From positions 55,628 through 119,627 of the forward strand of contig MHUT01000018.1 of NCBI GenBank assembly GCA_001823535.1: a stretch of DNA of 64,000 bases, written 5' to 3'. The notes under the pieces were generated by a model. That model was not told the origin of the DNA, did not search any database, and saw only the letters and a program-made list of their open reading frames with translations. The translations under genes and the position numbers were made by a program. This DNA is from Candidatus Yonathbacteria bacterium RIFCSPHIGHO2_02_FULL_44_14. GTDB taxonomy: Bacteria > Patescibacteriota > Minisyncoccia > Phycocordibacterales > UBA1550. This document shows, piece by piece, positions 34,499-62,206 of the stretch (within the stretch, counting starts at the first letter, position 1; the number at the start of each line of letters is the position of its first letter).

Positions 34499-34506
34499 AT
34501 AAATAA

Positions 34507-34550
34507 AAAATCCCGCATTTGTTCGGTCGAACAAATGCGGGATTTTTTAT
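34507..34550. terminator. bidirectional intrinsic terminator between convergent pyrH and 34551..34985
   Basis: AAAAAATCCCGCATTTGTTCG-gt-CGAACAAATGCGGGATTTTTTAT: 16-bp perfect stem flanked by A-run and T-run. Confidence 0.65.
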
Positions 34551-36713: not shown

Positions 36714-36725
36714 TAACTCAGAACA

Positions 36726-36790
36726 CCAAGCAAAAAGCTCCAGCTTCTTTTAAAAAAAGCTGGAGCTTTTTGCTTGGTGTTCTACATGAC
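36726..36790. terminator. bidirectional terminator between convergent rplT and 36782..37432 (about 25-bp perfect stem)
   Basis: AACACCAAGCAAAAAGCTCCAGCTT-cttttaaaaa-AAGCTGGAGCTTTTTGCTTGGTGTT. Confidence 0.6.
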
Positions 36791-42255: not shown

Positions 42256-45051
42256 CTAATTCCCCCCTCGAAACCGCGCCATAATCTCTGCCTCCACTTC
42301 ATCGCGCGGTGCGCCGTATTTCAAATACGAAAGCTGTTTGAGTTTTTCTGCCATTCTAGGGTCACCCTCTTCTGGTTTCATCGCTGTGATATTGAATGGT
42401 TTTGTTGGCTGACCATTTACGAGCATACTCATGTATGCATTATAGTTGTCGAGACGAGTTAGGTCTTGGGCTGTAAAAGTTGGCTTAAGCTTAGCCTCCA
42501 AATATTCAGCATCTTCAGGGCTCACACGAAAGAACGCCATGTTCCCAACATTACCAAACACTGCATCCTTGATTTCATCAGAAAGTTGCGCAATGAACTG
42601 ATGAGCAGCGATTAACCCTAGGCGATATTTGCGCGCCTCGGATAGAATGGTCGCAATGGACGGCGTTGTTACATTGTAAAATTCATCAATATAGAGGTAA
42701 AAGTCATTCGGTTTTTTACCTGTTCCAAACATATCCACACGAGAAAGCGCTGCCATTGTGATTTTCCCAACAAGAACAAGACCTATGAGTTTCGCATTTA
42801 TATCACCGAGTCGCCCCTTGGACAAATTGACAAGGAGAATCTTTTTTTCGTCCATAATCTTTCTGAAATTAAACGAGGACTCTTTTTGGAGCACCACAGG
42901 GCGCATGATGTCGTTGGAAATGAACGGGTCGAACTTGCTCGAAATATACGGCACAAAGTTTGCGAGTCCTTGGTCGCCGGTTGTCTTTTCCGCGCTCGCC
43001 CAAAATTGTGCAATGATCGGATTCTTGCACCGCGAAAGCTTCAAATCGCGAAACGCCTTGTCGGAAAGCACACGAGTAATATCAAGGAGTGTTGCCTGCT
43101 CGCTCGTGTCTTCCATGACAAGGAAGGCGGCATTTTTGAAATACTGCTCGAACATTGCGCCTCCGCCTGCCTTCATATCAAAAAGCTGATTAAATATGTT
43201 CATCATCTCATTTACCACGAATGTTTTCTGCTCGGGACGGCTGTGGTCATACTCGAGCATATTGAGTCCCATTGGGCGCTCTATATACGACGGATCAAAA
43301 TAAATCACATCATCAGCGCGCTCGGGTGGAATGAGCGCAAGGATATCCTGCACGTCATTCCCGTGCGGGTCGATGAAGCACACGCCGTCGCCATTCCGAA
43401 TATCCTGAATAATCATATTTTTCAGGATGCTCGTCTTGCCGGTCCCTGTCTGACCAATAACATACATATGTCGCACGCGATCCTCGCGTCCCATGCGCAC
43501 AATTGTTTCTTTGTTGTGATAAATATTTTTCCCAAGAATAATTCCCTCGTTCCCCATTTCGATAGGCGCCGGTGCACCTCCTGCCTTTGCCTCCTTGAGT
43601 TCTGATGCAGAAGTTGCGATAACAGGAAAATGAAACATTGTTGCAAGTTCTTTTAAATTAAGCGGAAAACTTTCTTTGTCGCTCCACATACGAAACGAGT
43701 AACGATAAATTGCCTCCGAGAGAGCGCTTCCTTTTGTATCGCGCTCCCACTTAATAGTATTTGATTGTGGTTTCCCAAATTGATTGAATGCGCTTTCGAG
43801 TTCATTCAATATCGTCTCTGCGCGCGCCGAAGTATCCGCCGATGCAATAATGCGAATATTGGTGTCAACAATTGGCGATGCTATTTTCTCCTCAATATTT
43901 TTTATTGCTTCTTCTTCAATTGGCTCATCCTCCTTGCGCAGCTTTACCCCGAAAACAAGACTCTTTGCGACATTTGCAAATTCTGCGGCAAATTGCGCGC
44001 CCGCATTCTTGAGCGCATCCTTTGCCTTTGTGCCCTTTTTGATCTGCTCCACTATCCCATGGTAACGAGTGTTGAACGCCTTACCCGAAGGGCGAATGAC
44101 GAACTGCACAGCCACCCCCTCGCCGTCTCGGTTTATTTTTGAAAATGTGGAGAGGAGCACGTTGAGCGGATCCTGTGTAAATGTTTCAAACGTGCGAAGC
44201 GGGTATGCAACCTCTCCCCCTGTGGTGGCAAAAGAAGCAACGCTTACACCTTTTTCATTAAACGGATTATAGTCTTCGCGATGTTCTTTGAGTCTCGCGT
44301 CCGGGTATACTGCAAGAATTTGTTTTTCAAAAAGGTTTGCGTGCTCAAGTGGAACCGCAGAATAAAATACGATATGCTCGCTGAAATTCGACAGTGCGAG
44401 TTCGAGCGTAAAATAATTTTTTGTGTCGCCAAAGCCCGATTTCGTATTCTCGATTGAAAGCATGCCGGCATAAAAGTGCTCCATGCCGGAAACCAGCTGT
44501 GCAAACTCGCGTTTCTCGCCAGTGGGATCTATGGGCGGTAATGTCACCTCATAAAGACGCATCTTGAGCGCACGCGCAAGCTCCTTATCGCGAGAAATGC
44601 CAGCAAAGTCCCCCGTCTCCAAAATGAGCTGGACGAGCATGCGATGAAAATCATCCTCGATATGCGGATTGTTTAATTTCTCGAGGAGCGCGAGCGCATT
44701 TTTAATGCCTTTTGTCTCCACAATGCGCATCAGCTGGTCAATAGCTTCCTTGTGCTCAACACCAAGCTTCACCACATTGGTTTCAAGCTCATCGATCTTC
44801 ATACGATAGCTTTCTTCAAGAAGTGCCTCGGGAGGTGCGGCGCGATATTCAGCAACCTTTTCACGCACGATCTCTTCACGCTTCTCGAGCGTGCGCTCGG
44901 GTGACCCCGGAGCAATCCCCATCACGCGCTCCTTGTCCGCAATCTGGGCGCGCAAGTATGCTACCTCTTCCTCTGGAGATTGGAATTGTTTCCCCACGCT
45001 TCCGTATTCTGGATTCATATCATGAAAGTATACCATAAAATGTTCTCTCAA
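42256..45051 (-). CDS. large P-loop ATPase of the FtsK/HerA/VirD4 (AAA-like, DUF87 / T4SS coupling-protein-like) class
   Basis: 931 aa. Walker A VIGQTGTGKTS, and downstream YLYIDEF (Walker B-like). About 430-aa N-terminal region of unknown function. Confidence 0.45.
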   Translation of the reverse strand: MREHFMVYFHDMNPEYGSVGKQFQSPEEEVAYLRAQIADKERVMGIAPGSPERTLEKREEIVREKVAEYRAAPPEALLEESYRMKIDELETNVVKLGVEHKEAIDQLMRIVETKGIKNALALLEKLNNPHIEDDFHRMLVQLILETGDFAGISRDKELARALKMRLYEVTLPPIDPTGEKREFAQLVSGMEHFYAGMLSIENTKSGFGDTKNYFTLELALSNFSEHIVFYSAVPLEHANLFEKQILAVYPDARLKEHREDYNPFNEKGVSVASFATTGGEVAYPLRTFETFTQDPLNVLLSTFSKINRDGEGVAVQFVIRPSGKAFNTRYHGIVEQIKKGTKAKDALKNAGAQFAAEFANVAKSLVFGVKLRKEDEPIEEEAIKNIEEKIASPIVDTNIRIIASADTSARAETILNELESAFNQFGKPQSNTIKWERDTKGSALSEAIYRYSFRMWSDKESFPLNLKELATMFHFPVIATSASELKEAKAGGAPAPIEMGNEGIILGKNIYHNKETIVRMGREDRVRHMYVIGQTGTGKTSILKNMIIQDIRNGDGVCFIDPHGNDVQDILALIPPERADDVIYFDPSYIERPMGLNMLEYDHSRPEQKTFVVNEMMNIFNQLFDMKAGGGAMFEQYFKNAAFLVMEDTSEQATLLDITRVLSDKAFRDLKLSRCKNPIIAQFWASAEKTTGDQGLANFVPYISSKFDPFISNDIMRPVVLQKESSFNFRKIMDEKKILLVNLSKGRLGDINAKLIGLVLVGKITMAALSRVDMFGTGKKPNDFYLYIDEFYNVTTPSIATILSEARKYRLGLIAAHQFIAQLSDEIKDAVFGNVGNMAFFRVSPEDAEYLEAKLKPTFTAQDLTRLDNYNAYMSMLVNGQPTKPFNITAMKPEEGDPRMAEKLKQLSYLKYGAPRDEVEAEIMARFRGGN

Positions 45052-45124
45052 AACCGAAAAGTAGCGGTGTTGTCGAGCAACACCGCTACTTTTCGGTTTT
45101 TGTTTCTGTATAACCTACTCCTGC

Positions 45125-46294
45125 CTACTTAAGCCTTGACTCAATTTTTTCTATACGAAGAAGAAGTTCCACATTGTCTGCTTTGAGTTTGTCGTTCTCA
45201 GCCTTTAGCTCTTTGACAGAATTTACCAAAGGGACAACGAACTCAGCGTACGAAAGCGAGTAATAGCCGTCCTTTGTTGCAGGTTTATTGATGCCATAAA
45301 AAGGAATGTCAGTCGCCTCTACTTCTTGAGCGATAAAACCATTGTGAGTTTGATTTGTAGCGTCTGTTGTGAATTTGAAGGATACTGGTCGAAGGCGTGT
45401 AATGAAATCAAGCCCATGTGTGTAATCAACAACATCTTTTTTCAGTCGCGCATCGGAAAGATTTGACCAAGCTACCTGCCCACCGATAACAGTAACTGCT
45501 GTATTGCCAATACGAACTTTGTTTGAGGCGTCGACGAAAGTATACGCACCAATAGCAGTAGCGTTAGTAAGATTAGAAGAAAAAGGCATGGAGGTGAAGG
45601 CCCCAATCGCAGTGTTGTATGTGCCTGTACCGTTAAAACGAAGTGAATCAATCCCAACCCCAGTATTATAGGACCCTGAAGTATTGTAGAAAAGAGATTG
45701 AGTACCCACTGCGGTATTACCGCCTCCATAGGTCGAATAAAGAGCATCGTATCCGTTCGCGGTGTTGTTGCTACCGTCCTCGTTATCATAGAGAGCATAC
45801 CCACCAGTCGCAGTGTTTCGACTACCAGTGCTGTTCATTAGTAAGGATGCAAAACCGCTTGAGGTGTTGTCGGTGCCGGTGATGTTCGAACACAGAGCAC
45901 AATATCCCATCGCGGTATTGTCACCTGATCCAGAACCCCCTACTCCTACCGTAATTCCATTTACGAGAATATCTCCGGGGTCAGATATTCTCCAAGTAAG
46001 AGAAGCTCCGTCCCATCGGACAGTTTGCCCGTCGTCAGTTCCTGTAGGTAGTGCGCCGATTATTGCACTCAAACATTTTCCTGTGATGCACACATCTCCA
46101 GTACTAATGATATCGCCAACCGTCAACGTTCCGGTTTTTGTTTGAGGAGCACTGCCTGTGTTAATTGGTGCATCCACATTCCCCAGAGGGGGTACTGATG
46201 CCGGTGCTGTCCACGCAAGAGCATGGCTCACTCCAAAAGAAACAACGACTGCAAGAGTGATGACTTTAATAGTGGAAAAAATTTGTTTGGTCAT
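45125..46294 (-). CDS. secreted fibre-like repeat protein with C-terminal intramolecular-chaperone (peptidase S74-like) domain
   Basis: Signal peptide then AWTAPASVPPLGNVDAPIN motif. Many NTA(V/I)G repeats. C-terminus SDARLKKDV...GFIAQEVE...LKAENDKLK resembles the self-cleaving chaperone domain of tail-fibre / endosialidase proteins. Confidence 0.5.
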   Translation of the reverse strand: MTKQIFSTIKVITLAVVVSFGVSHALAWTAPASVPPLGNVDAPINTGSAPQTKTGTLTVGDIISTGDVCITGKCLSAIIGALPTGTDDGQTVRWDGASLTWRISDPGDILVNGITVGVGGSGSGDNTAMGYCALCSNITGTDNTSSGFASLLMNSTGSRNTATGGYALYDNEDGSNNTANGYDALYSTYGGGNTAVGTQSLFYNTSGSYNTGVGIDSLRFNGTGTYNTAIGAFTSMPFSSNLTNATAIGAYTFVDASNKVRIGNTAVTVIGGQVAWSNLSDARLKKDVVDYTHGLDFITRLRPVSFKFTTDATNQTHNGFIAQEVEATDIPFYGINKPATKDGYYSLSYAEFVVPLVNSVKELKAENDKLKADNVELLLRIEKIESRLK

Positions 46295-46311
46295 AATATA
46301 GTTAATTACTT

Positions 46312-46881
46312 TTAATGGATCTGAATTTCACTTGCAGAGAATTCTTTCAGTGTCTTTATGTTCTCTGTGGCAGTGGCGACGAGCGCGATGCCAACAGTGA
46401 TACTTGAAGCATCAATAGTGGTAAGAATTGGCTCTGGTGGGCGTGGTAGTGTTGCGCCAGAGCTTTTCCCTGCTTTCATATTTTTGATATATGCATCCCT
46501 TTCAGCCTTATAGGTGTTCATATCTCCTTGAGAAATTTTTATTATTTTGGTGTCCTTTGTAATGACTATGGTTCGATCGAGCATAGCAGGGTCCTCAAAC
46601 GGATTCGTTGACTGCGTGTGGACAGTGATTCGGTCTCCATTGACGGCGGTGACAGCACCGGAAATAGTGCGAATATCATCGGGTGCGCGAAATGCGCGAC
46701 CAATATTACTTTCTTGTGCCAACTTTTTTGCGTTATCGAAACCTGCCTGATAAGTATTCGCTGATACTTGCTTGAAATATATAAACGATGCGCATGTTCC
46801 AACTATAATTCCAACAACAAGCACTCCAATATACTGAGCAGTGTGGGACGGACAAACTAGCGGTGGTGACTGTGTTTCCAT
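46312..46881 (-). CDS. membrane-anchored hypothetical protein (189 aa)
   Basis: Single N-terminal TM. No motif. Confidence 0.3.
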   Translation of the reverse strand: METQSPPLVCPSHTAQYIGVLVVGIIVGTCASFIYFKQVSANTYQAGFDNAKKLAQESNIGRAFRAPDDIRTISGAVTAVNGDRITVHTQSTNPFEDPAMLDRTIVITKDTKIIKISQGDMNTYKAERDAYIKNMKAGKSSGATLPRPPEPILTTIDASSITVGIALVATATENIKTLKEFSASEIQIH

Positions 46882-47007
46882 TTTTTTAATTAACTTATTA
46901 CCAAAAGTATACCACTTTGCGCAGAGAAATACGCAAATATCCTATGTGGATAACTTAAAAATGCCTAAAATACAGGCAAGTGGAAGCTAGTCTTCGTATT
47001 TTTGAAT

Positions 47008-47505
47008 CTACTTTGTTTCAGGAGACCGAGGCTCAGATTCTCTTTTGAGAATTATAAGCGCTATGAGTAGAGCAACAAAAAATATGGCAGAACCATAAAA
47101 ACACGGTGTGGTAAATGGACTTGCGGTCGGTACCCCTGAGCATCCTACCCCCTGCCCCGGCAATGCGGTATAAAAATCGTACACCAAACGCAGAAAATTT
47201 GTCCACGCAAAAACATTACCTGCTGACAACAGGACCAACAAATACTTTTCACTTTTACGTCGCATCTCGCCTTCTTTTTTTAGAAGCGCAACCGACCACG
47301 CAAAAGCAACAGCAAAGGCGATGGCCCCATAAAAACATGGCGTGGTAACAGGGTTCGGATAGATACAATCTTTAATTTTCAAAAGTGTCCCCTCTGCGTT
47401 GTAAAAACGCATAAAATCAACCAATGCGGTCGTCCACGCAAAAACGGTTCCCCCTAGAAGGGTAGCAGTTTGTATCCAATACATCTTCGTTTTCATATTA
47501 AGCAT
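47008..47505 (-). CDS. 4-TM membrane protein with internal tandem duplication (TTPCFYG motif twice)
   Basis: Two homologous halves, each FAWT...P(V/F)TTPCFYG(A/S)(I/A)(A/I)F. Confidence 0.35.
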   Translation of the reverse strand: MLNMKTKMYWIQTATLLGGTVFAWTTALVDFMRFYNAEGTLLKIKDCIYPNPVTTPCFYGAIAFAVAFAWSVALLKKEGEMRRKSEKYLLVLLSAGNVFAWTNFLRLVYDFYTALPGQGVGCSGVPTASPFTTPCFYGSAIFFVALLIALIILKRESEPRSPETK

Positions 47506-52996: not shown

Positions 52997-53588
52997 AAAT
53001 TAAAATACGATGCTTTTGCCAATATCTCGCGCAAATTCTTTTGAAGACCTTCGCTTGCGCAAAAGTCTTCAAAAGGAGGTGCGCGGATTGCTCAAAAACC
53101 CGTAGAAGCATCCTAGCATATAGGGAAATAATGTCAACAAAAAAAGGCGGCCTTGCGGTCGCCTTTGTCAATTCTGGAGAAAATCGAGTTATGTTATGCG
53201 TAAATTACCGCAAAACGTCTGGTGTTTGCGGTTTGTAGCAGTGAGTCGCTCGAACCCGCGATGGCACGCGACAGAAAGAACATCGGAACGAGTGTGACTG
53301 CTGTGCCCTGACAAAATATCTTTTGAATCTTCGGGGAACATTCCCTGATTACTTGCTGGCGCGCTGGAGCGAGGCTTTCTCTCATTACGGCTGAAATTCT
53401 TCAAAAAACCCCAAATATTCCATGGTGAAGGGCCGCGATTGCGCCCGGTTTGTTCATGACCAACTTGTCCAATTTGACGAGATTTCCGAGATGCCATGAC
53501 TTTTCTCCCCTGTAAAGATCATATCAACGCACACGCGGTGATAGCGAACATCATCCCATATATGAGTACTAAGCACAAGTCCTCTTGT

Positions 53589-53624
53589 AAAAACAGACGG
53601 CCGATGGTTGGGCCGTCTGTTTTG
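53589..53624. terminator. strong bidirectional hairpin terminator inside the rplE-rpsZ spacer
   Basis: AAAACAGACGGCC-gatggttg-GGCCGTCTGTTTT. On the minus strand it is followed by TTTTTAC. Confidence 0.5.
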
Positions 53625-53976
53625 AACCGCTGATTGTTATGAGTGAATCAACCCCACCCTACCCCATGTTGCAAAAAATGCATCTCCGCCGATGTGGCGG
53701 TTGTCGCTATTTTCATTGTCTTGATGAACGCCGTAAGCACATACAGGCTTACCTCCAATGACAATGCTGTCTTGTCCATGGTTTTCCAGATGGTCGGTAT
53801 CAAGGACCCCATCATATCCCAAATGCTTTGGACTCATTACACCACCTTGCATGATTTTCCCCTTTAGGTAAAGAACTCTTGGATACACCCCATGTCTACC
53901 CAATTACGTTGTATTATCCCACCAATGTTTAAAAAACGCAAGGAAAAAGCTGAGAACCTATCACTATCTCGTGGTA

Positions 53977-54091
53977 CCCAGCCTAGAAACCCTTATTTTT
54001 AGGCGAAAACAAGTCGGAGCGCGAGACATAATGAATTATGTCTCGCGTGAGACGAAGTTTTGCAGCCAAAAATAAGGGTTTCTAGGTTGGG
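53977..54091. repeat. 115-nt nested hairpin (25-bp outer stem, 13-bp inner stem) 60 nt downstream of rplE
   Basis: Outer CCCAGCCTAGAAACCCTTATTTTTAGG / CCAAAAATAAGGGTTTCTAGGTTGGG. Inner CGCGAGACATAAT-ga-ATTATGTCTCGCG (54020-54047). Confidence 0.5.
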
Positions 54092-54150
54092 GGAAGATAG
54101 TGGATAGGTTCTCGGTTCAGGATTTACCTGAACTGAGCTTTTTGCATAGT

Positions 54151-56402: not shown

Positions 56403-57101
56403 CTATTGGAATGTCTGGGTCTCGGTTGCAACAAGCTTCTTTTTGCTGTCCGCAAAAATCTGACCTTTGTAAACCCAAACTTTGATACCAATAGCACCAT
56501 AAGGAAGGCGAGCAGTGTTCTTTGCAAAATCAATGTCTGCGCGAAAAGTCTGAAGTGGGATACCCCCGCGACGAATCTGCTCGTAGCGCGCCATTTCTGC
56601 ACCACCCAAACGACCAGATATTGCGATACGTGCACCCTTTACTTCGCGATTTGCCATAACCTTTTCAATAGTCTGTTTCAAGATCATGCGGAAAGGTAGG
56701 CGCTTCTCGAGACCCTCGGCAACCATTTCTGCAACAACAGCGGCATTACCTTCTGGCGAACGAACTTCCTCAATATCGAGCTTGAAGTCTTTTGGGATAT
56801 CAAGCTTGAGACGAGTTGCTTCTTTCAAGATATCATTTTTCAGCTTTACTGAACCTTCACCGGCACGACCGATAACCATACCCGGGCGAGCAGTCTTGAT
56901 GAGAATACGAAAAGTCTTTGCATTGCGCTCGATTTCAACACCTGCAATATAGCTGCCACGAAGACGTTTATCGAGAAATTTGCGAATGAGCACGTCACCC
57001 TTGAGAAACTTCTTGAAATCATCTTTTGCGCCAAACCAACGTGATTTCCAATCACGGATGATTCCCAAACGGTGCGCATATGGATGTACGATGTGTGTCA
57101 T
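56403..57101 (-). CDS. rpsC: 30S ribosomal protein S3
   Basis: KH domain + S3 C-terminal domain, 232 aa. Confidence 0.9.
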   Translation of the reverse strand: MTHIVHPYAHRLGIIRDWKSRWFGAKDDFKKFLKGDVLIRKFLDKRLRGSYIAGVEIERNAKTFRILIKTARPGMVIGRAGEGSVKLKNDILKEATRLKLDIPKDFKLDIEEVRSPEGNAAVVAEMVAEGLEKRLPFRMILKQTIEKVMANREVKGARIAISGRLGGAEMARYEQIRRGGIPLQTFRADIDFAKNTARLPYGAIGIKVWVYKGQIFADSKKKLVATETQTFQ

Positions 57102-57102
57102 G

Positions 57103-57561
57103 TTATTTTGTCTTTTTAGCTGCCTTAACCTTTGCTACAGCCTTTACTTTTGCAAGAGCAGTCTTCTTTGACACCTTAGGTGCCTCTACTTCTAATTCAG
57201 TCTTCTTTGCCATCTTCTTTGAAGGCGCAATATCTGCACTTGCAATGAGCTCAATCATGATGTGGCTTGTGTGCTTGTGAATAGGGTGTGCAGTGCCATG
57301 CGACTTTGGCATAGAGCGTTTGAGGATTGTACCCTGGTCCACACGCACTTCTTTTACAAAAAGATCTACTAGTGCAATGCCATCGTTTTCCTTTGCGTTT
57401 GCAACGGCTGACATCAAAAGCTTTTTCATTGGACCTGATGCACGCTTTGGAAGCACGTCGAGTTCAACCAAAGCACGGGGAACAGTCTTCCCTTTAATAA
57501 GATTTGCCACAAGGCGGACCTTGCGTGGCGCTTGACGATAACTTCTAAGAATTGCTTTCAT
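57103..57561 (-). CDS. rplV: 50S ribosomal protein L22 (Lys/Ala-rich C-terminal extension)
   Basis: Conserved L22 core followed by AKKTELEVEAPKVSKKTALAKVKAVAKVKAAKK tail. Confidence 0.85.
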   Translation of the reverse strand: MKAILRSYRQAPRKVRLVANLIKGKTVPRALVELDVLPKRASGPMKKLLMSAVANAKENDGIALVDLFVKEVRVDQGTILKRSMPKSHGTAHPIHKHTSHIMIELIASADIAPSKKMAKKTELEVEAPKVSKKTALAKVKAVAKVKAAKKTK

Positions 57562-57567
57562 GGTTAA

Positions 57568-57915
57568 TTATTTCTTCTTAGCAGCAGGTGTTTCGGATTT
57601 AGCGGCTTTTGCAGCAGTGATTTCTGCTTCTTTCTTCTTTTGCTCAAGCTCCTTCTGCATTTTGCCTCCGTGTCGTACAAATTTCTTTGTAGGAGAAAAC
57701 TCTCCGAGTCTGTGCCCTACCATATCTTCAGTCACGCGAACTTCAAGATGTGTCTTACCATTGTACACACCAAAAAGGAATCCTACCATTTCTGGGGAGA
57801 TTTGGCTCGAACGCGCCCATGTCTTTATCATTGCGGCGGTTGATGCGCTTTTGCCAACAAGTTTCTCCAAGAGTCTTGGGTCAATATATGGTCCTTTTTT
57901 TAGTGATCGTGTCAT
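57568..57915 (-). CDS. rpsS: 30S ribosomal protein S19 (C-terminal Lys-rich extension)
   Basis: Internal Met MTRSLKKGPYIDPRLLEK is the conserved start. Confidence 0.85.
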   Translation of the reverse strand: MTRSLKKGPYIDPRLLEKLVGKSASTAAMIKTWARSSQISPEMVGFLFGVYNGKTHLEVRVTEDMVGHRLGEFSPTKKFVRHGGKMQKELEQKKKEAEITAAKAAKSETPAAKKK

Positions 57916-57945
57916 TTGATAATAGGGTGTCTTTAAACAAAACAA

Positions 57946-58047
57946 CCCAGCCCTTACTTTGTTGCGTAAATTAACCTTTACGCACACAACGCAGAAACTG
58001 CATAATATCCTAACTCCCTAAATTATGCAACAAAGCAGGGGCTGGGT
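57946..58047. promoter_or_regulatory. long imperfect hairpin in the rpsS leader (CCCAGCCC... / ...GGGGCTGGG family)
   Basis: cccagcccttactttgttgcgtaa (57946-57969) vs ttatgcaacaaagcaggggctggg (58024-58047). Same GGGGCTGGG core as the infC-rpmI leader hairpin. Confidence 0.4.
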
Positions 58048-58149
58048 CGTAATGTATCTTACCAAATTGAAGAATAATGTCAAATCGGACGGCGGGCGCT
58101 ATCCGTCTCGATTACAAAAAAGATGTAACAATTGACAAAAGGAGGGTCT

Positions 58150-58185
58150 GCGCTTCGCGCAGACCCTCCTTTTACAGTGTATTTT
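58150..58185. terminator. bidirectional intrinsic terminator separating the inserted secreted-protein genes from rpsS
   Basis: AAAAGGAGGGTCTGCGC-ttcg-GCGCAGACCCTCCTTTT. Confidence 0.55.
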
Positions 58186-58207
58186 TGGCAAACGTCAATT
58201 ATTTTCC

Positions 58208-59146
58208 CTAAAACTGCTTCACTTTGGCCCTGCAATCGGTGGGACAATTGAGGACTGTCTCCCCTGCATCACAGACGCTATTAATGACACAAACTGGAGC
58301 AGGATCCTCTACAACAACATTTTTGGAATCAAAACCCACACCGCAATCCAAACGATAAGAATACGTACCCGCTAGAGAAAGATTCCCTGTGGGAACATTA
58401 GTTCCCGATGATGCTTTTGCTCCCGACCAGCTTCCTGATGCAATACATGCGGTTGGAGGAGTTGTGGTCCATGAAAGAGTCGTCCCGGTGCCCGTTTGGA
58501 TAGTAGTGGCAGCAGGAACAATTAGAACGGTAACGGTAGGAATAGGAAGATGCACACCATTTGCGCCGGCAGAGATCGGAGCAAAGTCAATCCAACCTAC
58601 AACGTCTGAACCCCACGCGTAGCTTGAGAAGACTCCAGTTGCGGGAGCGACTGTCACGCCGTACGATGCGCCACTATCGCTGGTATCTTTTGAAAGCTTA
58701 ATCCAGCCATTCCATCCATCAGTTCTGCTTGCTCCCGTACAATCACCGTTGACCGTTCCCGCACACGCACGCGCCCAACCGGTAACCGTATCATCTGCCT
58801 CAAGGCGAGCTCCGTGATTTGGCACACTCGGATAACCGCTTAAAGGTGCCAAATTAATCCAACCGATATTCTCACTCCATGCGTATCCAGAAAAATCTCC
58901 CGTAGCTGCGCTGACACTTACACCATAGTTGCTCGTTCCGCACGAGCTGTCGTTTGTGCAACTAAAACTGACCCAGCCTATTGTCTCGCTCCATGCCCAC
59001 CCAGACACTGGGCCAGATACAGAAACGGCTTCAGCCTTCGGTGTTTCAAAAAAATTCGGATCTGTAATATAACCTGCGAAAACAACCGCTCCCACCACTG
59101 CGACGGTGAGAATATTTCGTAATTGGTAAATAAAAAATATTTTCAT
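58208..59146 (-). CDS. secreted repeat protein (three AWSENIGW-type repeats, Cys-rich C-terminus)
   Basis: Signal/TM, repeats SGWAWSETIGWVSF / SGYAWSENIGWINL / SSYAWGSDVVGWIDF. Confidence 0.4.
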   Translation of the reverse strand: MKIFFIYQLRNILTVAVVGAVVFAGYITDPNFFETPKAEAVSVSGPVSGWAWSETIGWVSFSCTNDSSCGTSNYGVSVSAATGDFSGYAWSENIGWINLAPLSGYPSVPNHGARLEADDTVTGWARACAGTVNGDCTGASRTDGWNGWIKLSKDTSDSGASYGVTVAPATGVFSSYAWGSDVVGWIDFAPISAGANGVHLPIPTVTVLIVPAATTIQTGTGTTLSWTTTPPTACIASGSWSGAKASSGTNVPTGNLSLAGTYSYRLDCGVGFDSKNVVVEDPAPVCVINSVCDAGETVLNCPTDCRAKVKQF

Positions 59147-59187
59147 ACTAAACAGTATATCACTTTATTTTATACTACCATAAATTA

Positions 59188-60006
59188 TCAATCAATACAT
59201 GTTACAACACAGGACCCTTTGTAATAGCTTATAGTCCATGTGCCATTATATGTGCCAGATACACCGCAAGCATCGCCACCGTTTGCAGCCCCGAAATAAC
59301 CCATAAAACAGGCTTTGTGCACGCCAGGATTTGCACCAGCACTGTACGTGGTCACATTTGAGAAACCGCCGCCACTACCGCTTGCAGATGTCCATGCTGT
59401 TCCGTTGCAAAACTCAGGGGCGTGCGTCGTGTAATTGTAGCGCTGAGTGCCTTCGGTCGAAGCGCTACAAACGGTAACCTGTGTCTCACTTCCCGTTCGC
59501 ACGCCACCCGCGACATCAAGTTTTACATTAGGGTTACCCTTTCCAATGCCGACATTTCCTGAATTCATAAGTGTCATAATTTCAGTAGTGGTGTCATTAA
59601 AAAAAGAAGTACGCCCGCCCACTGAAATATTTCTAATCGTGAACCATTTATCGATACCGCCATCAGACCAAATATTCCCATAAAGATCTCCAAACCCTAT
59701 ATTCCCGAGGATTGGGTCAGGGCTTTTAATTTGAAGTTGGCTTGAAGGGTTCGTCGTCCCTATGCCGACCTTGCCGTCAAATATCGCATTACTGTACCCT
59801 CGAATCAATCCTTCAATTCCAAGCCCTCCTGTGTGTGCAGTAGGATCACCTTTGTACTGGGATGTTCCGCTCACATTAATAGGCGCCGCGACATTCCCCA
59901 CAGGAGGTGTGGCTGTGGGTACTGTCCATGCAAAAGCGTAACCTACCCCAATAGAAAGGGTCAGCGCAACGAGAACGATTTTTAAGAATTGGTTGATATT
60001 TTTCAT
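59188..60006 (-). CDS. secreted fibre-like protein, paralogue of 45125..46294 N-terminal region
   Basis: Signal peptide then AWTVPTATPPVGNVAAPIN, plus GKVGIGTTNPSSQLQIK / GNVGIGKGNPNVKLDVAG tail-fibre-like repeats. Confidence 0.45.
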   Translation of the reverse strand: MKNINQFLKIVLVALTLSIGVGYAFAWTVPTATPPVGNVAAPINVSGTSQYKGDPTAHTGGLGIEGLIRGYSNAIFDGKVGIGTTNPSSQLQIKSPDPILGNIGFGDLYGNIWSDGGIDKWFTIRNISVGGRTSFFNDTTTEIMTLMNSGNVGIGKGNPNVKLDVAGGVRTGSETQVTVCSASTEGTQRYNYTTHAPEFCNGTAWTSASGSGGGFSNVTTYSAGANPGVHKACFMGYFGAANGGDACGVSGTYNGTWTISYYKGSCVVTCID

Positions 60007-60015
60007 GATTATTTG

Positions 60016-60405
60016 TTACTTGTTTGCTGCCGAGCGCATTGCATCTAATTCTAGGACTTGCTGTTCCGCTGTTTCTCCAGTATTTACTGATGTTGTTTTT
60101 TGTTTTACTCGCACAGAATCGAGATTTCTCACTTGATCTTTCATTGTGATTGTTGGTTGTGATATGTTGAGTCCTTGATATTGCGCTCGTAGTTTGTCTA
60201 ATTCTTCGTTCTGATATTTTAACAACTGCTCTGTTTCCGTTGGTTCTGTTGACAACACACTATCTGATCCTCCAGCGGTTCTCCTATCGATAGTTTGATG
60301 ATACCGGTAGTACGCCACAATAACAGCAATAAAAATCACACTAACGAGGATAATTGTTAAAAGTTTTTTCTTGCCTTCACCTGCTATTATGTTTTCGTTG
60401 TCCAC
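60016..60405 (-). CDS. membrane-anchored hypothetical protein (129 aa, GTG start)
   Basis: Single TM then coiled-coil-prone region. A G10 homopolymer lies 24 nt upstream on the coding strand. Confidence 0.35.
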   Translation of the reverse strand: MDNENIIAGEGKKKLLTIILVSVIFIAVIVAYYRYHQTIDRRTAGGSDSVLSTEPTETEQLLKYQNEELDKLRAQYQGLNISQPTITMKDQVRNLDSVRVKQKTTSVNTGETAEQQVLELDAMRSAANK

Positions 60406-60583
60406 GCGTTAAGTATACATTTATGTTGCCCCCCCCCCGCAATAAAATTTACAAAATTGGTGTGTATAACTTTTTGGGCTACTTTCGTAGGAAATCTGAA
60501 TATTCAGAAGATAGAACCCTGGCTTACGCCACATGGTATTGATGTGGAATGAATTTCAGCACTCCAATAACACCCAACAAACT

Positions 60584-60625
60584 ACTATCCCCAATTCCTA
60601 GCTATAGCCAGGAATTGGGGATAGT
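60584..60625. repeat. 42-bp palindrome A downstream of the PaaX-like gene
   Basis: ACTATCCCCAATTCCTAGCTA|TAGCCAGGAATTGGGGATAGT (one mismatch). Confidence 0.6.
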
Positions 60626-60657
60626 AGTAATAGTGGAAAATTGACAAAAAGGAGAAC

Positions 60658-61209
60658 CTAGAAAACACCAAAGTGTTCCTTAAGTTTTCGCACTCCTTCG
60701 ATCTCTTTTGCTTTGATATAGATAATATAGTCACGAACATCGAAAAATTCTCCGATGAAATCAACTTCATCTTTACAGAGATATGGCGACACAAAAACAG
60801 ATTTCTGAATTGGATACAGACCAAGCTCTTTAATCTTTCGACTCACCGCACTGCGTGCTCTCCTTTTTTGCTCCGGAATATCGAACATCACGATACGCCA
60901 CCAGCCGTCCCATTTTGGTGGTACTTTGAGTTTCATGTCGTCAAGATTGTATTCAAGAACTTTTTTCTGGCCTGCTCTAGTGATTTCTACAACTTCGTTG
61001 CCATTTTTTGTGTAGATATTTATAAGTTTCTTCTCTTGAAGACTTCTAATTGTGCGCTTAATTCGATATCGATCTCGTGCTCCTTTAGGCTTAAACAGTG
61101 GCACTATTTTAGTAAGCCCTGGCATTGCAAGACATGCAATAATAAAACCTCCGAGCGCAAGCCCCTTTAATATTTCCTTTGCGAGTTCGCCATTTTGATA
61201 ATCCCTCAT
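60658..61209 (-). CDS. wHTH + Cas2-fold protein (PaaX-like regulator architecture)
   Basis: C-terminal WWRIVMFDIPEQKRRARSAVSRKIKELGLYPIQKSVFVSPYLC matches the Cas2 beta1-alpha1-beta2 signature. The N-terminal 100 aa contains a winged-helix-like segment. 183 aa. Confidence 0.45.
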   Translation of the reverse strand: MRDYQNGELAKEILKGLALGGFIIACLAMPGLTKIVPLFKPKGARDRYRIKRTIRSLQEKKLINIYTKNGNEVVEITRAGQKKVLEYNLDDMKLKVPPKWDGWWRIVMFDIPEQKRRARSAVSRKIKELGLYPIQKSVFVSPYLCKDEVDFIGEFFDVRDYIIYIKAKEIEGVRKLKEHFGVF

Positions 61210-61225
61210 TACCTTTTCAGCATAC

Positions 61226-61273
61226 CATACTATCCCAAAATTCTAGCTATAGCTAGAATTTTGGGATAGTATG
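61226..61273. repeat. 48-bp perfect palindrome B immediately upstream of the PaaX-like gene
   Basis: CATACTATCCCAAAATTCTAGCTA|TAGCTAGAATTTTGGGATAGTATG. Related to palindrome A with symmetric (compensatory) differences. Confidence 0.6.
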
Positions 61274-61366
61274 TTGTCGGTACTATTACTGCTAAACATA
61301 TCGACATACCTGAGAAATAATAAAAGCCAATCTGCTGTACAGCAGATTGGCTTTTATTATTTGTTG

Positions 61367-62206
61367 CTACTTCGAGCGCTTGGTCTTGCGACGGGCGACA
61401 ATGAGATTGTTTGAGTACTTCTTTGGCGAGCGTGTCTTCCTACCTCCTGTTACCTTTCCGTGCTTTGTCTTTGGACGCTTTGTACCGCGACCCTGACGTC
61501 CTTCACCTCCACCGTATGGGTGGTCTACAGGGTTCATCGCTGAACCACGAACTGTTGGGCGAATACCGAGCCAACGGTTACGTCCAGCTTTTCCAATATT
61601 ACGGTGCTTATATTCTTCGTTGGAAACAGCGCCGATTGATGCCCATACGTTTTCTGAAACTTTTCGAATCTCGCCTGAAGGCATTTTCAAATGGCTCTGT
61701 CCTCTGTCGTTTGCAACCACTTCAGCGTAGTTTCCTGCTGAACGCGCGATGCGTGCACCACCGTTCGGCTGAAGTTCAACATTGTAAACAAACGTACCAA
61801 CAGGGACTTTGCGTAAAATCGTACGATTACCTGGCTTTAGAGGAGCATCTTCAGCAATAAGAATACTATCGCCAACCTTTATTCCCTGAGGAAGGAGGTT
61901 ATAGCGACGCTCGCCGTCCGCATAGCAAATCACGCCAATAAAACCAGAGCGATTTGGATCGTACTCAACGGTCTCAACTTTTGAGGGAATGCCGATCTTA
62001 TCAAAACGAAAATCAATTTCACGGAAGGAACGCTTGTGTCCGCCTCCCTTGTGTTGAGTAGTGATGCGACCAAACGCATTGCGTCCAGAACCACGACGGA
62101 AACCAGTCGTGAGTGCCTTCAAAGGCTCGTTGGTTGTGAGTACGCTACGGTATGACACGATGGCCGTGTGGCGATTTGAGGGGGTTGTTGGTTTAAATTT
62201 TTTCAT
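61367..62206 (-). CDS. rplB: 50S ribosomal protein L2
   Basis: 279 aa, conserved GGGHKR / HPVDHP-like motifs (NPVDHPYGGGEGR). Confidence 0.9.
   Translation of the reverse strand: MKKFKPTTPSNRHTAIVSYRSVLTTNEPLKALTTGFRRGSGRNAFGRITTQHKGGGHKRSFREIDFRFDKIGIPSKVETVEYDPNRSGFIGVICYADGERRYNLLPQGIKVGDSILIAEDAPLKPGNRTILRKVPVGTFVYNVELQPNGGARIARSAGNYAEVVANDRGQSHLKMPSGEIRKVSENVWASIGAVSNEEYKHRNIGKAGRNRWLGIRPTVRGSAMNPVDHPYGGGEGRQGRGTKRPKTKHGKVTGGRKTRSPKKYSNNLIVARRKTKRSK

What the first reader, a model, noticed from the sequence alone, without database searches (positions are those of the whole stretch)
57988..61366. 3.4-kb insertion splitting the conserved rplB-rpsS junction of the S10 operon
In almost all bacteria rplB is directly followed by rpsS. 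Here four co-oriented genes intervene, each with associated signals: two secreted repeat / fibre-like proteins, a membrane-anchored protein preceded by a G10 tract, and a wHTH-Cas2-fold protein flanked by long palindromes. A strong bidirectional terminator (58150-58185) lies before rpsS, so the downstream r-protein genes must be re-promoted, probably from the hairpin-containing leader 57946-58047. Surface proteins embedded in the most conserved operon of the genome are unexpected and might couple their expression to growth rate.
Basis: partly seen in the sequence, partly recalled or inferred. Interest (0 to 1): 0.6.

Follow-up and report, generated by a model that had tools for sequence, protein, structure and literature searches.

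The report
Variable gene bay between ribosomal operons
The four genes between rplB and rpsS are real, but they do not interrupt an operon: in this bacterial lineage the ribosomal cluster is normally cut there by a terminator and a promoter, and the gap holds fast-changing surface-protein genes plus a small repressor cassette.

Summary
Four co-oriented genes fill the 3,451 nt between rplB and the true rpsS start (57915), identically in at least 10 independent assemblies.

The "one insertion into an intact operon" reading is only partly right.
- Among 55 related Paceibacteria loci, rplB|rpsS is much the loosest of 12 junctions (median 932 nt, 27 above 1 kb). Eleven are tight.
- A terminator follows rplB in 42 of 63 relatives.
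- A conserved extended -10 promoter precedes rpsS in 39 of 55, and a 5' hairpin follows it in 24 of 34.

The site is therefore a lineage-wide boundary between two operons, and its contents vary.
- The GW-repeat/Ig protein (312 aa) sits next to rpsS throughout the Yonathbacteria clade.
- The tail-fibre-like protein (272 aa) and the membrane protein (129 aa) are patchy.
- An ~860-bp cassette is 92-98% identical to a lineage whose rplB DNA is only ~80% identical, so it was exchanged recently. It holds a truncated PaaX-like repressor, two palindromes and a G8-G10 promoter tract.
- The palindromes match PaaX operator geometry and co-vary with the recognition helix.

Growth-rate coupling is not supported. 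GC3 is native. This is a new variant of known kinds.

The parts
61367..62206 (-). rplB (L2, 279 aa), the last gene of the upstream rpsJ-rplB transcription unit.
   Evidence: Pfam Ribosomal_L2_N 2.7e-29 and L2_C 3.1e-47.
61315..61362 (.). Perfect 24+24-nt hairpin with A- and T-rich flanks: a bidirectional intrinsic terminator that ends the rplB unit.
   Evidence: Inverted repeat I4, 100% complementary; terminator scan. A terminator-like hairpin within 120 nt after rplB is found in 42 of 63 relatives, against 0.8 expected.
61226..61273 (.). palA, a zero-loop 48-nt palindrome (core CTATCC-N28-GGATAG) ending 12 nt before the ATG of the PaaX-like gene (measured on its 28-nt-arm extension; 16 nt after 61226). 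Proposed autoregulatory operator that overlaps a -10-like TAGTAT.
   Evidence: Dyad covariation across 24 palindromes. Covariation between recognition helix and half-site.
60658..61209 (-). Truncated PaaX-like protein (183 aa): conserved hydrophobic N-terminus, wHTH and Cas2-like PaaX_M domain, with no PaaX C-terminal ligand domain.
   Evidence: Pfam PF20803 2.3e-20; Cas2 1e-5. AF2 pLDDT 79. Foldseek best hit E. coli PaaX 8a39, probability 1.0. 294 homologues, several per genome.
60581..60628 (.). palB, the second copy of the palindrome (84% identical to palA, with three compensated arm changes), 29 nt after the stop codon. Proposed second operator or roadblock in front of the surface-protein genes.
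60406..60442 (-). Candidate promoter TTGCGG-N19-TATACT. Its spacer contains the G10 tract (60429-60438) and it ends 6 nt before the GTG of the 129-aa gene. The tract length varies from G8 to G10 among assemblies.
   Evidence: Sequence. It is the only homopolymer of 9 or more in the window. G10, G9 and G8 alleles. The same element lies upstream of a TM gene in L102. Its role as a promoter is inferred.
60016..60405 (-). 129-aa bitopic membrane protein: a transmembrane helix at about residues 15-35, then a coiled-coil-like region with ELDxLRA repeats.
   Evidence: ORF; no Pfam family. Homologues lie in the same gap in L014 and L027 and in L122.
59188..60006 (-). 272-aa secreted, tail-fibre-like protein, with a signal peptide ...GYAFA|WTVP and GxVGIG...KLDV stalk motifs.
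   Evidence: PHROG tail-fibre families 4.9e-6 and 4.2e-4. Homologues carry Peptidase_S74, Collar, Gly_rich_2 and GP38 domains. Found patchily in the gaps of 6 relatives.
58208..59146 (-). 312-aa surface protein: N-terminal helix, four GW(A/I)W..GW(I/V)xF repeats, an Ig/PKD-like domain, and a Cys-rich tail that ends in ...QF.
   Evidence: AF2 pLDDT 81; no PDB or BFVD match at E <= 0.001 (best 0.025 in PDB, 0.0089 in BFVD). More than 1,875 homologues. Homologous gene in the gap of 12 Yonath-clade relatives, last gene before rpsS in 8 of 8 informative ones.
58137..58173 (.). Intrinsic terminator (17-bp GC-rich stem, 3-nt loop, A4/T4 flanks) that ends the surface-protein unit.
   Evidence: Inverted repeat I7, 100% complementary.
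58056..58083 (-). rpsS-operon promoter: TTGACA, 16-nt spacer, TG, TAAGAT.
   Evidence: 10 of 12 consensus matches plus TG. The motif lies upstream of rpsS in 39 of 55 relatives, P about 1e-51.
57916..58055 (-). rpsS leader: a 5'-terminal long hairpin (arms 58055-58019 and 57973-57937) followed by UUGUUUUGUUU. It is an enlarged version of the small AGCUC-loop-GAGCU hairpin plus U-run found in relatives, and its apical part contains a 10-codon mini-ORF.
   Evidence: dG -57.3 kcal/mol, z -6.9. Hairpin plus U-run in 24 of 34 relatives, against 2.5 expected. Same variant in L016.
57568..57915 (-). rpsS (S19, 115 aa), the first gene of the downstream rpsS-rplE transcription unit.
   Evidence: Pfam Ribosomal_S19 5.4e-31. 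The ATGACA start is conserved in relatives.

Best explanation
In this lineage (class Paceibacteria of the Patescibacteria; the window belongs to a Candidatus Yonathbacteria genome) the 'S10 operon' is two transcription units. rpsJ-rplB ends at an intrinsic terminator. rpsS-rplE restarts from its own strong extended -10 promoter, followed by a 5'-terminal hairpin and U-run. I infer that this hairpin stabilises the mRNA or acts as an attenuator.

The DNA between the terminator and the promoter is free of polar constraints. It has become a lineage-wide gap ('cargo bay') whose content is gained, lost, shuffled and exchanged.

In the Yonathbacteria clade the bay holds a fast-evolving envelope and surface-protein module. 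A GW-repeat/Ig protein is always next to the rpsS promoter. Tail-fibre-like proteins and small membrane proteins are variable. I infer that the module serves cell-surface or host contact.

In this species the module is headed by an ~860-bp regulator cassette. It consists of a truncated PaaX-type repressor (wHTH plus Cas2-like domain) flanked by two copies of its own 6-N28-6 dyad operator. One copy overlaps the repressor's own promoter, which suggests autoregulation. The other lies in front of a promoter whose spacer is a G8-G10 tract. I infer that this promoter drives TM129, P272 and P312 and that the tract gives on/off or graded phase variation.

Shown:
- the anatomy;
- the lineage-wide loose junction;
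- the conserved terminator, promoter and hairpin;
- the layered ages of the cargo genes;
- the covariation between protein and palindrome;
- the G-tract length polymorphism;
- the mosaic identity boundaries of the cassette.

Inferred:
- the transcript boundaries;
- repressor binding;
- phase variation;
- the surface function.
For: 1. The junction is specifically loose.
   - Across related genomes only rplB|rpsS is loose: median 932 nt, 33 of 55 above 300 nt, 27 of 55 above 1 kb.
   - The 11 other junctions from rplC to rplE have medians of -58 to +20 nt and at most 2 loci above 300 nt.
   - In some genomes housekeeping genes (MurJ and LepA; GyrB) or a VirD4-like ATPase follow rplB, with no rpsS within up to 8 kb.
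2. The boundary signals are conserved.
   - A terminator follows rplB in 42 of 63 relatives, against 0.8 expected.
   - A promoter precedes rpsS in 39 of 55, including spacers of only 54 nt.
   - 'Empty' sites of 136-290 nt consist of terminator, promoter and hairpin.
   - A hairpin plus U-run follows the promoter in 24 of 34, against 2.5 expected.
3. The cargo is layered.
   - P312 homologues occur in 12 Yonath-clade loci and are the last gene before rpsS in 8 of 8. They are only 30-40% identical although rplB is 80-96% identical.
   - P272-like, TM129-like and a 184-aa family are patchy.
   - GC3 is native.
4. The same gene families co-occur elsewhere, once next to pilB and pilC.
5. The regulator is PaaX-like and its palindromes behave as its operators.
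   - PaaX_M 2e-20; fold match to PaaX 8a39.
   - The E. coli PaaX operator is TGATTC-N27-GAATCA (PMC9493321). Here it is CTATCC-N28-GGATAG.
   - Nearly every paralogue of 57% identity or more has its own palindrome on both sides.
   - All 20 arm positions show changes on both sides, 98.5% of cells are complementary, and there are almost no G-T pairs, so the symmetry is at the DNA level.
   - Recognition-helix variants track half-site variants.
6. The G tract is polymorphic: G10, G9 and G8 alleles.
7. The cassette was exchanged recently. The ~860-bp cassette is 92-98% identical to L100/L121/L122, while the flanking rplB DNA is about 80% identical and the TM129 homologue about 55%.
Against: - There are no expression data. 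All promoters, terminators and operators are predictions, and read-through from rplB cannot be excluded.
- The G-tract variation among assemblies could partly be homopolymer sequencing or assembly error. The -35 assignment (TTGCGG) is weak, and spacers of 18-19 nt are suboptimal.
- Perfect dyad symmetry over all 40-48 bp goes beyond what a 6-N27-6 operator needs and is not explained by the operator model alone.
- The surface-protein function rests on signal or anchor sequences, Ig and tail-fibre-like domains and gene neighbourhood. The GW-repeat domain has no characterised homologue or fold match.
- The relatives were sampled by rplB similarity (57% or more) from metagenome-assembled genomes, so the breadth of the split outside this sample is unknown.
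Confidence: 0.7

Rival explanations
1. This is a single, recent horizontally acquired 3.4-kb island that broke an otherwise intact rplB-rpsS operon, after which a new promoter had to evolve.
For: - Close relatives differ in content: L012, at 96% rplB identity, has only the P312-like gene in a 1.39-kb gap.
- The ~860-bp cassette was exchanged recently.
Against: - The rpsS promoter and leader and the rplB terminator are shared by most relatives, including those with empty sites.
- P312 is fixed next to rpsS across the clade.
- The TM129 and P272 homologues in the L122 lineage are diverged at the same position.
- GC3 of the genes is 0.35-0.415, against a window mean of 0.419 with sd 0.053.
- No relatives were found in viral contigs.
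Confidence: 0.08
2. The palindrome-gene-palindrome unit is a selfish or mobile element, analogous to a REPtron or an IS200/IS605 element. The flanking hairpins would be recognised as single-stranded DNA, and the Cas2-like domain would act as the nuclease. It would not be a repressor with operators.
For: - The family is multi-copy per genome and sits co-oriented in unrelated operons.
- The palindromes are perfect and have no loop, and their whole arm co-varies, at the DNA level and without G-T pairs.
- The Asp of the Cas2 'FDIP' motif is invariant.
- The cassette was recently exchanged between lineages.
Against: - No HUH, Y1 or DDE domain was found.
- Paralogues are 57-84% identical and each has its own palindrome, so they are old copies and not recent transposition products.
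- No solo palindromes occur in the 64 kb.
- The recently exchanged segment runs 175 nt beyond palB to the TM129 start, so it is not bounded by the palindromes.
- The geometry equals the PaaX operator, and the helix and half-site co-vary.
Confidence: 0.12
3. The four genes are co-transcribed with the ribosomal genes by read-through, so that surface-protein output follows growth rate.
For: - All the genes are co-oriented.
- Intrinsic terminators are rarely 100% efficient (general knowledge).
Against: - A 24-bp-stem terminator lies directly after rplB and a 17-bp-stem terminator lies before the rpsS promoter.
- The cargo has its own repressor, operators and promoter candidates.
- Cargo in other genomes is sometimes on the opposite strand: L049, L061, L062, L074.
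Confidence: 0.07
4. The arrangement is an assembly or binning chimera.
For: None was found.
Against: - The arrangement is identical on at least 10 contigs from independent ENA and JGI assemblies.
- Related genomes show homologous arrangements.
Confidence: 0.01

Closest known systems
Canonical S10 (rpsJ) operon of E. coli and most bacteria: rpsJ-rplC-rplD-rplW-rplB-rpsS-rplV-rpsC-rplP-rpmC-rpsQ, one promoter, and an L4-controlled leader attenuator
   Same: - The gene order is the same, and every other junction is tight.
- A hairpin plus U-run leader stands in front of a ribosomal-protein unit, which is reminiscent of an attenuator.
   Different: - The unit is cut at rplB|rpsS by a terminator and a second promoter, lineage-wide.
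- The leader lies before rpsS, not before rpsJ.
- It matches no Rfam family.
- Its ligand is unknown.
E. coli and Pseudomonas PaaX, the repressor of phenylacetate catabolism (PDB 8a39; operator TGATTC-N27-GAATCA)
   Same: - wHTH plus Cas2-like PaaX_M domain.
- A dyad operator of about 40 bp with 6-bp outer half-sites.
- A position consistent with autoregulation.
   Different: - It lacks the C-terminal domain that binds phenylacetyl-CoA (183 aa; TIGR02277 scores 13.8 bits against a cut-off of 264.55).
- There are no paa genes.
- It has an extra conserved hydrophobic N-terminus.
- Its operators are fully palindromic and are present on both sides of the gene.
- It belongs to a multi-copy paralogue family in Yonathbacteria.
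Phase-variable promoters with homopolymeric spacer tracts, such as Neisseria porA/opc and Haemophilus fimbrial promoters (from my own knowledge)
   Same: - A poly-G tract lies between -35-like and -10-like hexamers, upstream of envelope and surface-protein genes.
- The tract length differs among sampled populations, from G8 to G10.
   Different: - Switching has not been demonstrated.
- The organism is an uncultivated CPR bacterium.
- The mRNA would be leaderless or nearly so (inferred).
- No report of phase variation in Patescibacteria was found in the library searched.
REPtrons (RAYT genes flanked by REP palindromes) and IS200/IS605 elements
   Same: A single small gene is bracketed by two related hairpin-forming palindromes, and each paralogue has its own specific palindromes.
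   Different: - There is no HUH/Y1 transposase domain.
- No dispersed solo palindromes were found.
- The evidence points to a double-stranded DNA operator.
Integration hot spots, or variable islands between conserved core genes (from my own knowledge)
   Same: One fixed inter-gene position accumulates diverse, rapidly turning-over accessory genes across a lineage.
   Different: - The hot spot lies inside the most conserved gene cluster of the genome.
- No integrase, tRNA or att sites were found.
- The cargo is mostly envelope proteins, not mobile-element genes.
Phage tail fibres and their chaperone-of-endosialidase modules
   Same: - P272 shares stalk motifs with PHROG tail-fibre families.
- Its homologues carry Peptidase_S74, Collar and GP38 domains.
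   Different: - It has a Sec-type signal peptide.
- There are no phage genes nearby.
- No relatives were found in viral contigs.
- It has the chromosomal context of a free-standing secreted protein.

Membership tests
Canonical contiguous S10 operon | rplB is followed directly by rpsS, with an intergenic distance of tens of nt at most. | tested here: not met
   The gap is 3,451 nt in the window. Only 13 of 55 relatives have a gap below 120 nt.
Canonical contiguous S10 operon | A single transcription unit from rpsJ to rpsQ. | not testable with these tools
   A predicted terminator follows rplB and a predicted promoter precedes rpsS, and both are conserved across relatives. There are no transcript data.
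PaaX family repressors | [quoted passage not shown] | tested here: met
   The AF2 model shows H44-59, E63-76 and H78-91. Foldseek finds PaaX 8a39 (probability 1.0) and many wHTH proteins.
PaaX family repressors | Central Cas2-like PaaX_M domain. | tested here: met
   PF20803 at 72.9 bits, against a cut-off of 24.
PaaX family repressors | C-terminal helical domain that binds the effector, and full-length equivalog score. | tested here: not met
   The protein ends at residue 183, directly after the Cas2-like domain. TIGR02277 scores 13.8 bits against a cut-off of 264.55.
PaaX family repressors | Binds a dyad operator of 6-bp inverted repeats about 27 bp apart. | tested here: inconclusive
   The geometry matches (CTATCC-N28-GGATAG, against TGATTC-N27-GAATCA), and the recognition helix co-varies with the half-site. 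Binding itself was not tested.
PaaX family repressors | Association with phenylacetate catabolic (paa) genes. | tested here: not met
   The neighbours are ribosomal, pilus, glycogen or surface-protein genes.
CRISPR-associated Cas2 | A Cas2 ferredoxin-like domain with the N-terminal Asp. | tested here: met
   PF09827 at 26.0 bits (cut-off 23.8) and TIGR01573 at 26.8 bits (cut-off 24.5), each over about 40 residues only. D110 of the FDIP motif is invariant in 41 homologues.
CRISPR-associated Cas2 | Stand-alone protein of about 90 aa next to cas1 and a CRISPR array. | tested here: not met
   It is a 183-aa fusion with a wHTH. No repeat array was found in the 64 kb, and none of the neighbourhoods examined contains cas genes.
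Phase-variable contingency locus | A long homopolymer in a promoter or 5' region of a surface-protein gene. | tested here: met
   G10 at 60429-60438, 23 nt upstream of the TM129 start. It is the only tract of 9 or more in the window.
Phase-variable contingency locus | Tract length polymorphism within or between populations. | tested here: met
   G10 in the window and 7 assemblies; G9 in L002, L004, L005, L100 and L121; G8 in L122. Assembly error was not excluded.
Phase-variable contingency locus | Tract length switches expression. | not testable with these tools
   This needs reporter or transcript data.
REPtron / IS200-IS605 | An HUH (Y1) transposase gene between the palindromes. | tested here: not met
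   Only PaaX_M and Cas2-like domains were found.
REPtron / IS200-IS605 | Dispersed solo copies of the palindrome in the genome. | tested here: not met
   There are only the two flanking copies in the 64 kb. The rest of the genome was not available.
Known ribosomal-protein leader RNAs (Rfam) | A match to a curated leader family. | tested here: not met
   No ribosomal-leader family matched at E <= 1 in 57000-62000, or at gathering score in the whole window.
Known ribosomal-protein leader RNAs (Rfam) | A conserved structure upstream of a ribosomal-protein operon. | tested here: met
   A hairpin plus U-run begins 1-20 nt (1-10 nt in 23 of 24) after the -10 box in 24 of 34 relatives, against 2.5 expected.
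Phage tail-fibre-like proteins (P272) | Sequence similarity to tail-fibre families. | tested here: inconclusive
   PHROG 9942 at 4.9e-6 and 18345 at 4.2e-4, over 60-100 residues only. The domains of homologues are supportive. P272 itself has no Pfam hit.

The most novel reading that the evidence does not exclude
Paceibacteria have re-wired the universal S10/spc ribosomal supercluster into several short operons, each behind the same strong promoter and a 5' hairpin. The resulting inter-operon gaps act as exchange sites for host-interaction surface genes.

In Yonathbacteria these genes would be controlled by a lineage-specific, expanded family of minimal PaaX-like repressors. Each repressor would carry its own readable code linking recognition helix to operator. 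Here it would be combined with a poly-G phase-variable promoter.

That would be the first predicted transcription-factor regulon code and the first contingency locus in the Candidate Phyla Radiation.

The conserved AGCUC/GAGCU hairpin before rpsS would be a new autoregulatory ribosomal-protein attenuator.
Probability: 0.3. Interest if true: 0.7.

Novelty: new variant of a known kind. Interest (0 to 1): 0.55.

Why it matters
1. **Phylogenomics and binning.** The S10/spc cluster is treated as the archetype of fixed bacterial synteny, and its 16 proteins are the standard phylogenomic marker block for uncultivated lineages. A whole class of the CPR breaks the cluster at a defined point (rplB|rpsS, and less strongly rplE|rpsN). 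The break carries up to more than 8 kb of variable cargo, and in some genomes the two halves are separated. This matters for contig-based marker concatenation and binning.

2. **Candidate host-contact genes.** The gap gives a fixed address at which to look for the fast-evolving envelope proteins of these episymbiont-like bacteria.

3. **A regulator with its own binding site.** Regulation in these organisms is essentially uncharted. In the PaaX-like cassettes the repressor and its cognate DNA site are written side by side, and the specificity co-varies. Regulons could therefore be predicted directly from sequence.

4. **A testable phase-variation candidate.** The G8-G10 tract can be tested for phase variation directly from metagenomic reads.

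Tried and rejected
- **Rfam.** Scans of the region and of the whole window returned only spurious sub-threshold miRNA hits on the palindromes. There was no ribosomal-leader family.
- **Profile search of the PaaX-like family against PDB sequences.** Nothing was significant.
- **Viral-contig scans for P272 and the PaaX-like family.** No relatives were found, so a prophage origin was rejected.
- **Foreign composition.** Rejected, because GC3 lies within the genome's spread.
- **The 184-aa protein family in relatives.** It occupies the cassette's position, but it is not a diverged PaaX-like protein: BLASTP gives E = 3.9, and it has no flanking palindromes.
- **RNA-hairpin reading of the palindromes** (RNase III sites or mRNA end protection). 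Judged less likely, because G-T pairs are almost absent among 480 arm cells. The constraint is therefore DNA dyad symmetry.
- **Mini-CRISPR reading** (a Cas2-like gene between two repeats). Rejected: there is no array, no cas1, and only two copies of the repeat.
- **Literature.** Searches for an S10-operon split, PaaX-like cassettes or phase variation in CPR or Patescibacteria found nothing relevant.
- **A correction to my own output.** The coordinates printed by my script were 1 nt too low. This caused two failed Pfam calls, and I corrected it.

Full report
**1. What is in the sequence**

On the - strand, rplB (61367-62206) and rpsS are separated by four co-oriented ORFs:
- a 183-aa protein at 60658-61209;
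- a 129-aa protein at 60016-60405;
- a 272-aa protein at 59188-60006;
- a 312-aa protein at 58208-59146.

The conserved start is the ATG at 57915 (MTRSLKKGPY), which reads ATGACA in every relative. The non-ribosomal stretch is therefore 57916-61366, or 3,451 nt.

- Two 48-nt zero-loop palindromes flank the 183-aa gene, at 61226-61273 and 60581-60628. They are 84% alike, differ by compensated changes, and none is expected by chance.
- A G10 tract lies at 60429-60438. It is the only homopolymer of 9 or more in the 64 kb.
- A 17-bp-stem terminator lies at 58137-58173.
- A long leader hairpin spans 57937-58055, with dG -57.3 kcal/mol and z -6.9.

The same arrangement occurs on at least 10 independently assembled ENA and JGI contigs. 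It is therefore not an assembly chimera. The exact 272-aa protein is on record as A2747_02635 of a Candidatus Yonathbacteria MAG.

**2. The junction is open across the lineage**

I fetched 80 related genomes through rplB, at 57-96% amino-acid identity. They are Yonathbacteria, Nomurabacteria and other Paceibacteria. In them I measured 12 consecutive junctions from rplC to rplE.
- Eleven junctions are tight. Their medians are -58 to +20 nt, and at most 2 loci exceed 300 nt.
- rplB|rpsS has a median of 932 nt. It exceeds 300 nt in 33 of 55 loci and 1 kb in 27 of 55.
- In further genomes no rpsS follows within up to 8 kb. There rplB is followed by a VirD4-like ATPase (L015), a 2,422-aa surface protein (L026), MurJ plus LepA (L024) or GyrB (L032).

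The contents of the gap elsewhere are heterogeneous. They include a PLP enzyme, a CNNM transporter, an M3 peptidase on the opposite strand, and a CHASE2 cyclase.

**3. The boundary signals are conserved**

- *Terminator after rplB.* Within 120 nt after rplB, 42 of 63 relatives have a terminator-like hairpin, against 0.8 expected from shuffles.
- *Promoter before rpsS.* An extended -10 promoter (TTGACA-N14-TTTGnTAnnAT) lies within 260 nt upstream of rpsS in 39 of 55 relatives. The background is 0.087 matches per kb, giving a binomial P of about 1e-51. In four genomes the promoter fills a spacer of only 54 nt.
- *Empty sites.* Sites of 136-290 nt consist of terminator, promoter and a small hairpin.
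- *Leader hairpin.* In 24 of 34 leaders a hairpin (typically AGCUC-loop-GAGCU) followed by a U-run starts 1-20 nt (1-10 nt in 23 of the 24) after the -10 box, against 2.5 expected.

The window's promoter is at 58083-58056: TTGACA, 16 nt, TG, TAAGAT, with 10 of 12 consensus matches. Its leader keeps the flanks ACGA...UUGUUUUGU, but the small stem is replaced by a hairpin of about 110 nt. L016 has the same variant.

The rplB|rpsS site is therefore an inter-operon boundary, and cargo placed there has no polar effect. It contradicts 'an insertion splitting a conserved junction'.

A second, weaker boundary of the same kind exists at rplE|rpsN. Its median is 205 nt, and it is 1,154 nt in the window, with the same promoter type at 53137-53110.

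**4. The cargo is layered by age**

- *The 312-aa protein is the oldest resident.* Homologues occur in 12 loci of the Yonathbacteria clade (rplB identity 77% or more). They are the last gene before the rpsS promoter in all 8 loci where both genes are seen. They are only 30-40% identical while rplB is 80-96% identical.
- *The other families are patchy.* Tail-fibre-like (272-aa type) proteins occur in 6 relatives (5 in the Yonathbacteria clade), TM129-like proteins in 2 relatives plus the L122 lineage, and an unrelated 184-196-aa membrane-protein family in 5.
- *Composition is native.* GC3 of the three inserted genes scored (the 129-aa ORF starts with GTG and was not scored) is 0.35-0.415, against a window mean of 0.419 with sd 0.053.
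- *The regulator cassette moved recently.* Contigs L100, L121 and L122 have the same gene order. Their rplB DNA is about 80% identical to the window (88.5% at the amino-acid level), and their TM129 homologue is about 55% identical. The stretch from palA to the TM129 start codon (about 61270-60410, or 860 bp) is 92-98% identical, with sharp edges on both sides.

**5. The proteins**

*P312.* It has an N-terminal helix, four GW(A/I)W..GW(I/V)xF repeats, an Ig/PKD-like domain and a Cys-rich C-terminus that ends in ...QF.
- The AF2 model has pLDDT 81.
- There is no Pfam or PHROG family and no PDB or BFVD fold match at E <= 0.001 (best 0.025 and 0.0089).
- The family has more than 1,875 members, most of those with a source name from Patescibacteria, often with PKD or Ig C-termini.

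*P272.* It has a Sec-type signal peptide and stalk motifs.
- The motifs hit PHROG tail-fibre families, at 4.9e-6 and 4.2e-4.
- Homologues carry Peptidase_S74, Collar, Gly_rich_2 and GP38 domains.
- No relatives were found in viral contigs.

*Co-occurrence elsewhere.* The same families appear together in other genomes. In L097 a member of the 184-aa family sits next to a P312-like gene. In L098 two proteins with a P272-like N-terminus and a P312-like protein lie directly upstream of pilB and pilC.

I infer that these genes form an envelope or surface module, possibly linked to type IV pili and host contact. This function is not shown.

**6. The regulator cassette**

*The protein.*
- It matches PaaX_M at 2.3e-20 and, weakly, Cas2.
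- Its AF2 model (pLDDT 79) is best matched by E. coli PaaX 8a39, then by wHTH proteins and Cas2.
- It lacks the PaaX C-terminal effector domain. TIGR02277 scores 13.8 bits against a cut-off of 264.55.

*The family.* It is one of a multi-copy family, with 294 hits and at least 4 copies in one MAG. Members sit co-oriented in unrelated places:
- between pilin genes and pilB;
- next to pilC and pilD;
- inside a GH57/GH15 glycogen cluster;
- after secY-adk-map;
- after rplB.

*The palindromes.*
- Nearly every paralogue of 57% identity or more has its own 40-58-nt zero-loop palindrome on both sides of the gene.
- In an alignment of 24 such palindromes, all 20 arm positions show changes on both sides.
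- 98.5% of cells are complementary, against 68.6% in shuffles and 33-43% in slid controls.
- G-T pairs are almost absent, so the constraint is DNA dyad symmetry and not RNA folding.

*Match to PaaX.*
- The geometry CTATCC-N28-GGATAG matches the published E. coli PaaX operator, TGATTC-N27-GAATCA (PMC9493321).
- Recognition-helix variants track half-site variants..RIKRTIRSL with CTATCCCC..RINQAFQKL with CTATCATCTAT, and ..RVNRTLTSL with TATCACAGAG.

I therefore read the palindromes as the protein's own operators. palA overlaps a -10-like TAGTAT, which suggests autoregulation. palB stands in front of the downstream genes. Binding itself is inferred.

The full-length perfect symmetry and the invariant Cas2-type Asp (D110) are not explained by this model. 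They keep a hairpin or mobile-element reading alive, at about 0.12.

**7. The G tract**

- The tract lies between TTGCGG (60442-60437) and TATACT (60417-60412). TATACT ends 6 nt before the GTG of the 129-aa gene.
- Its length is G10 in the window and 7 assemblies, G9 in 5 assemblies, and G8 in L122. The corresponding spacers are 19, 18 and 17 nt.
- The same element precedes a TM gene behind the PaaX-like cassette of L102.

This is the anatomy of a phase-variable promoter. Switching is inferred, and homopolymer assembly error is not excluded.

**8. Verdict**

The interpretation needs revising.
- The site is a lineage-wide inter-operon gap that holds variable cargo, not a one-off insertion.
- The surface module is insulated from the ribosomal genes, not coupled to them.
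- Only the repressor cassette moved recently.

Each component has a known analogue: an operon boundary or hot spot, a PaaX-type repressor with a dyad operator, a poly-G promoter, and tail-fibre-like adhesins. I therefore rate the finding a new variant of known kinds, of moderate interest. I found no description of it in the searchable literature.

Noticed in passing
window 52997-54150 (- strand), between rplE and rpsN: This is a second loose junction in the ribosomal cluster. It is 1,154 nt with no convincing ORF. It contains a long inverted repeat (53977-54091), an internal terminator, and the same promoter type (TTGACA...TGCTAGGAT, 53137-53110) with a leader before rpsN. In relatives rplE|rpsN has a median of 205 nt and exceeds 300 nt in 10 of 34. 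Patches at gap positions 245-302 and 1005-1153 are conserved in L012, L017, L019, L022 and L038.
   Followed up: partly
window 57971-58003 (- strand), apical part of the rpsS leader hairpin: A 10-codon mini-ORF (MQFLRCVRKG*) is preceded by GGGAG. L016 has MQFQCCL* at the same place. It could be a leader peptide, or it could be chance.
   Followed up: no
window 42256-47505 (- strand), downstream of secY-adk-map: This looks like a second surface-protein module. The 189-aa protein (46312-46881) belongs to the 184-196-aa family that sits in the rplB-rpsS gap of relatives. The 389-aa protein (45125-46294) shares the signal and AWTxPxxxPPxGNVxAPIN N-terminus of P272. In L102/L103 a PaaX-like cassette with the interrupted G tract sits exactly at this position, after map.
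   Followed up: partly
window 60658-61209, residues 8-33 of the PaaX-like protein: This Gly-rich hydrophobic segment (ELAKEILKGLAxGGxIVACxAxPGL) is nearly invariant across 41 homologues, yet it is modelled with low confidence (pLDDT 41-50). It could be a membrane-associated or oligomerisation element that classical PaaX lacks.
   Followed up: no
window 58208-58290 and the homologues in L012, L016, L022, L025 and L038: The C-terminal motif CGxNGxCxxGETxLxCPxDC(K/R)xxxxQF-stop is conserved in the P312 family, and it always lies at the very C-terminus. It may be a sorting or anchoring signal.
   Followed up: no
L018:8844 and L031:2827: G9 tracts also occur just downstream of rplB in two other relatives, inside their rplB-rpsS gaps.
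   Followed up: no
window 26609-26917 and 27076-27194: Three tandem units of about 110 nt (61-73% alike) lie directly upstream of a LOOT RNA match (85.9 bits). They may be additional diverged copies.
   Followed up: no
L001/L002:2655-5265 (same genome, upstream of the window): Four non-ribosomal genes sit between fusA and tuf in the str operon: a response regulator and ORFs of 270, 118 and 321 aa. This is another opened junction in the ribosomal supercluster.
   Followed up: no
window 31891-31954, 34497-34556, 36720-36783, 45050-45100: Very long perfect hairpins (23-32-nt arms) with A- and T-rich flanks recur between genes. This appears to be the genome's usual style of bidirectional terminator, and the hairpin after rplB is of the same style.
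   Followed up: no
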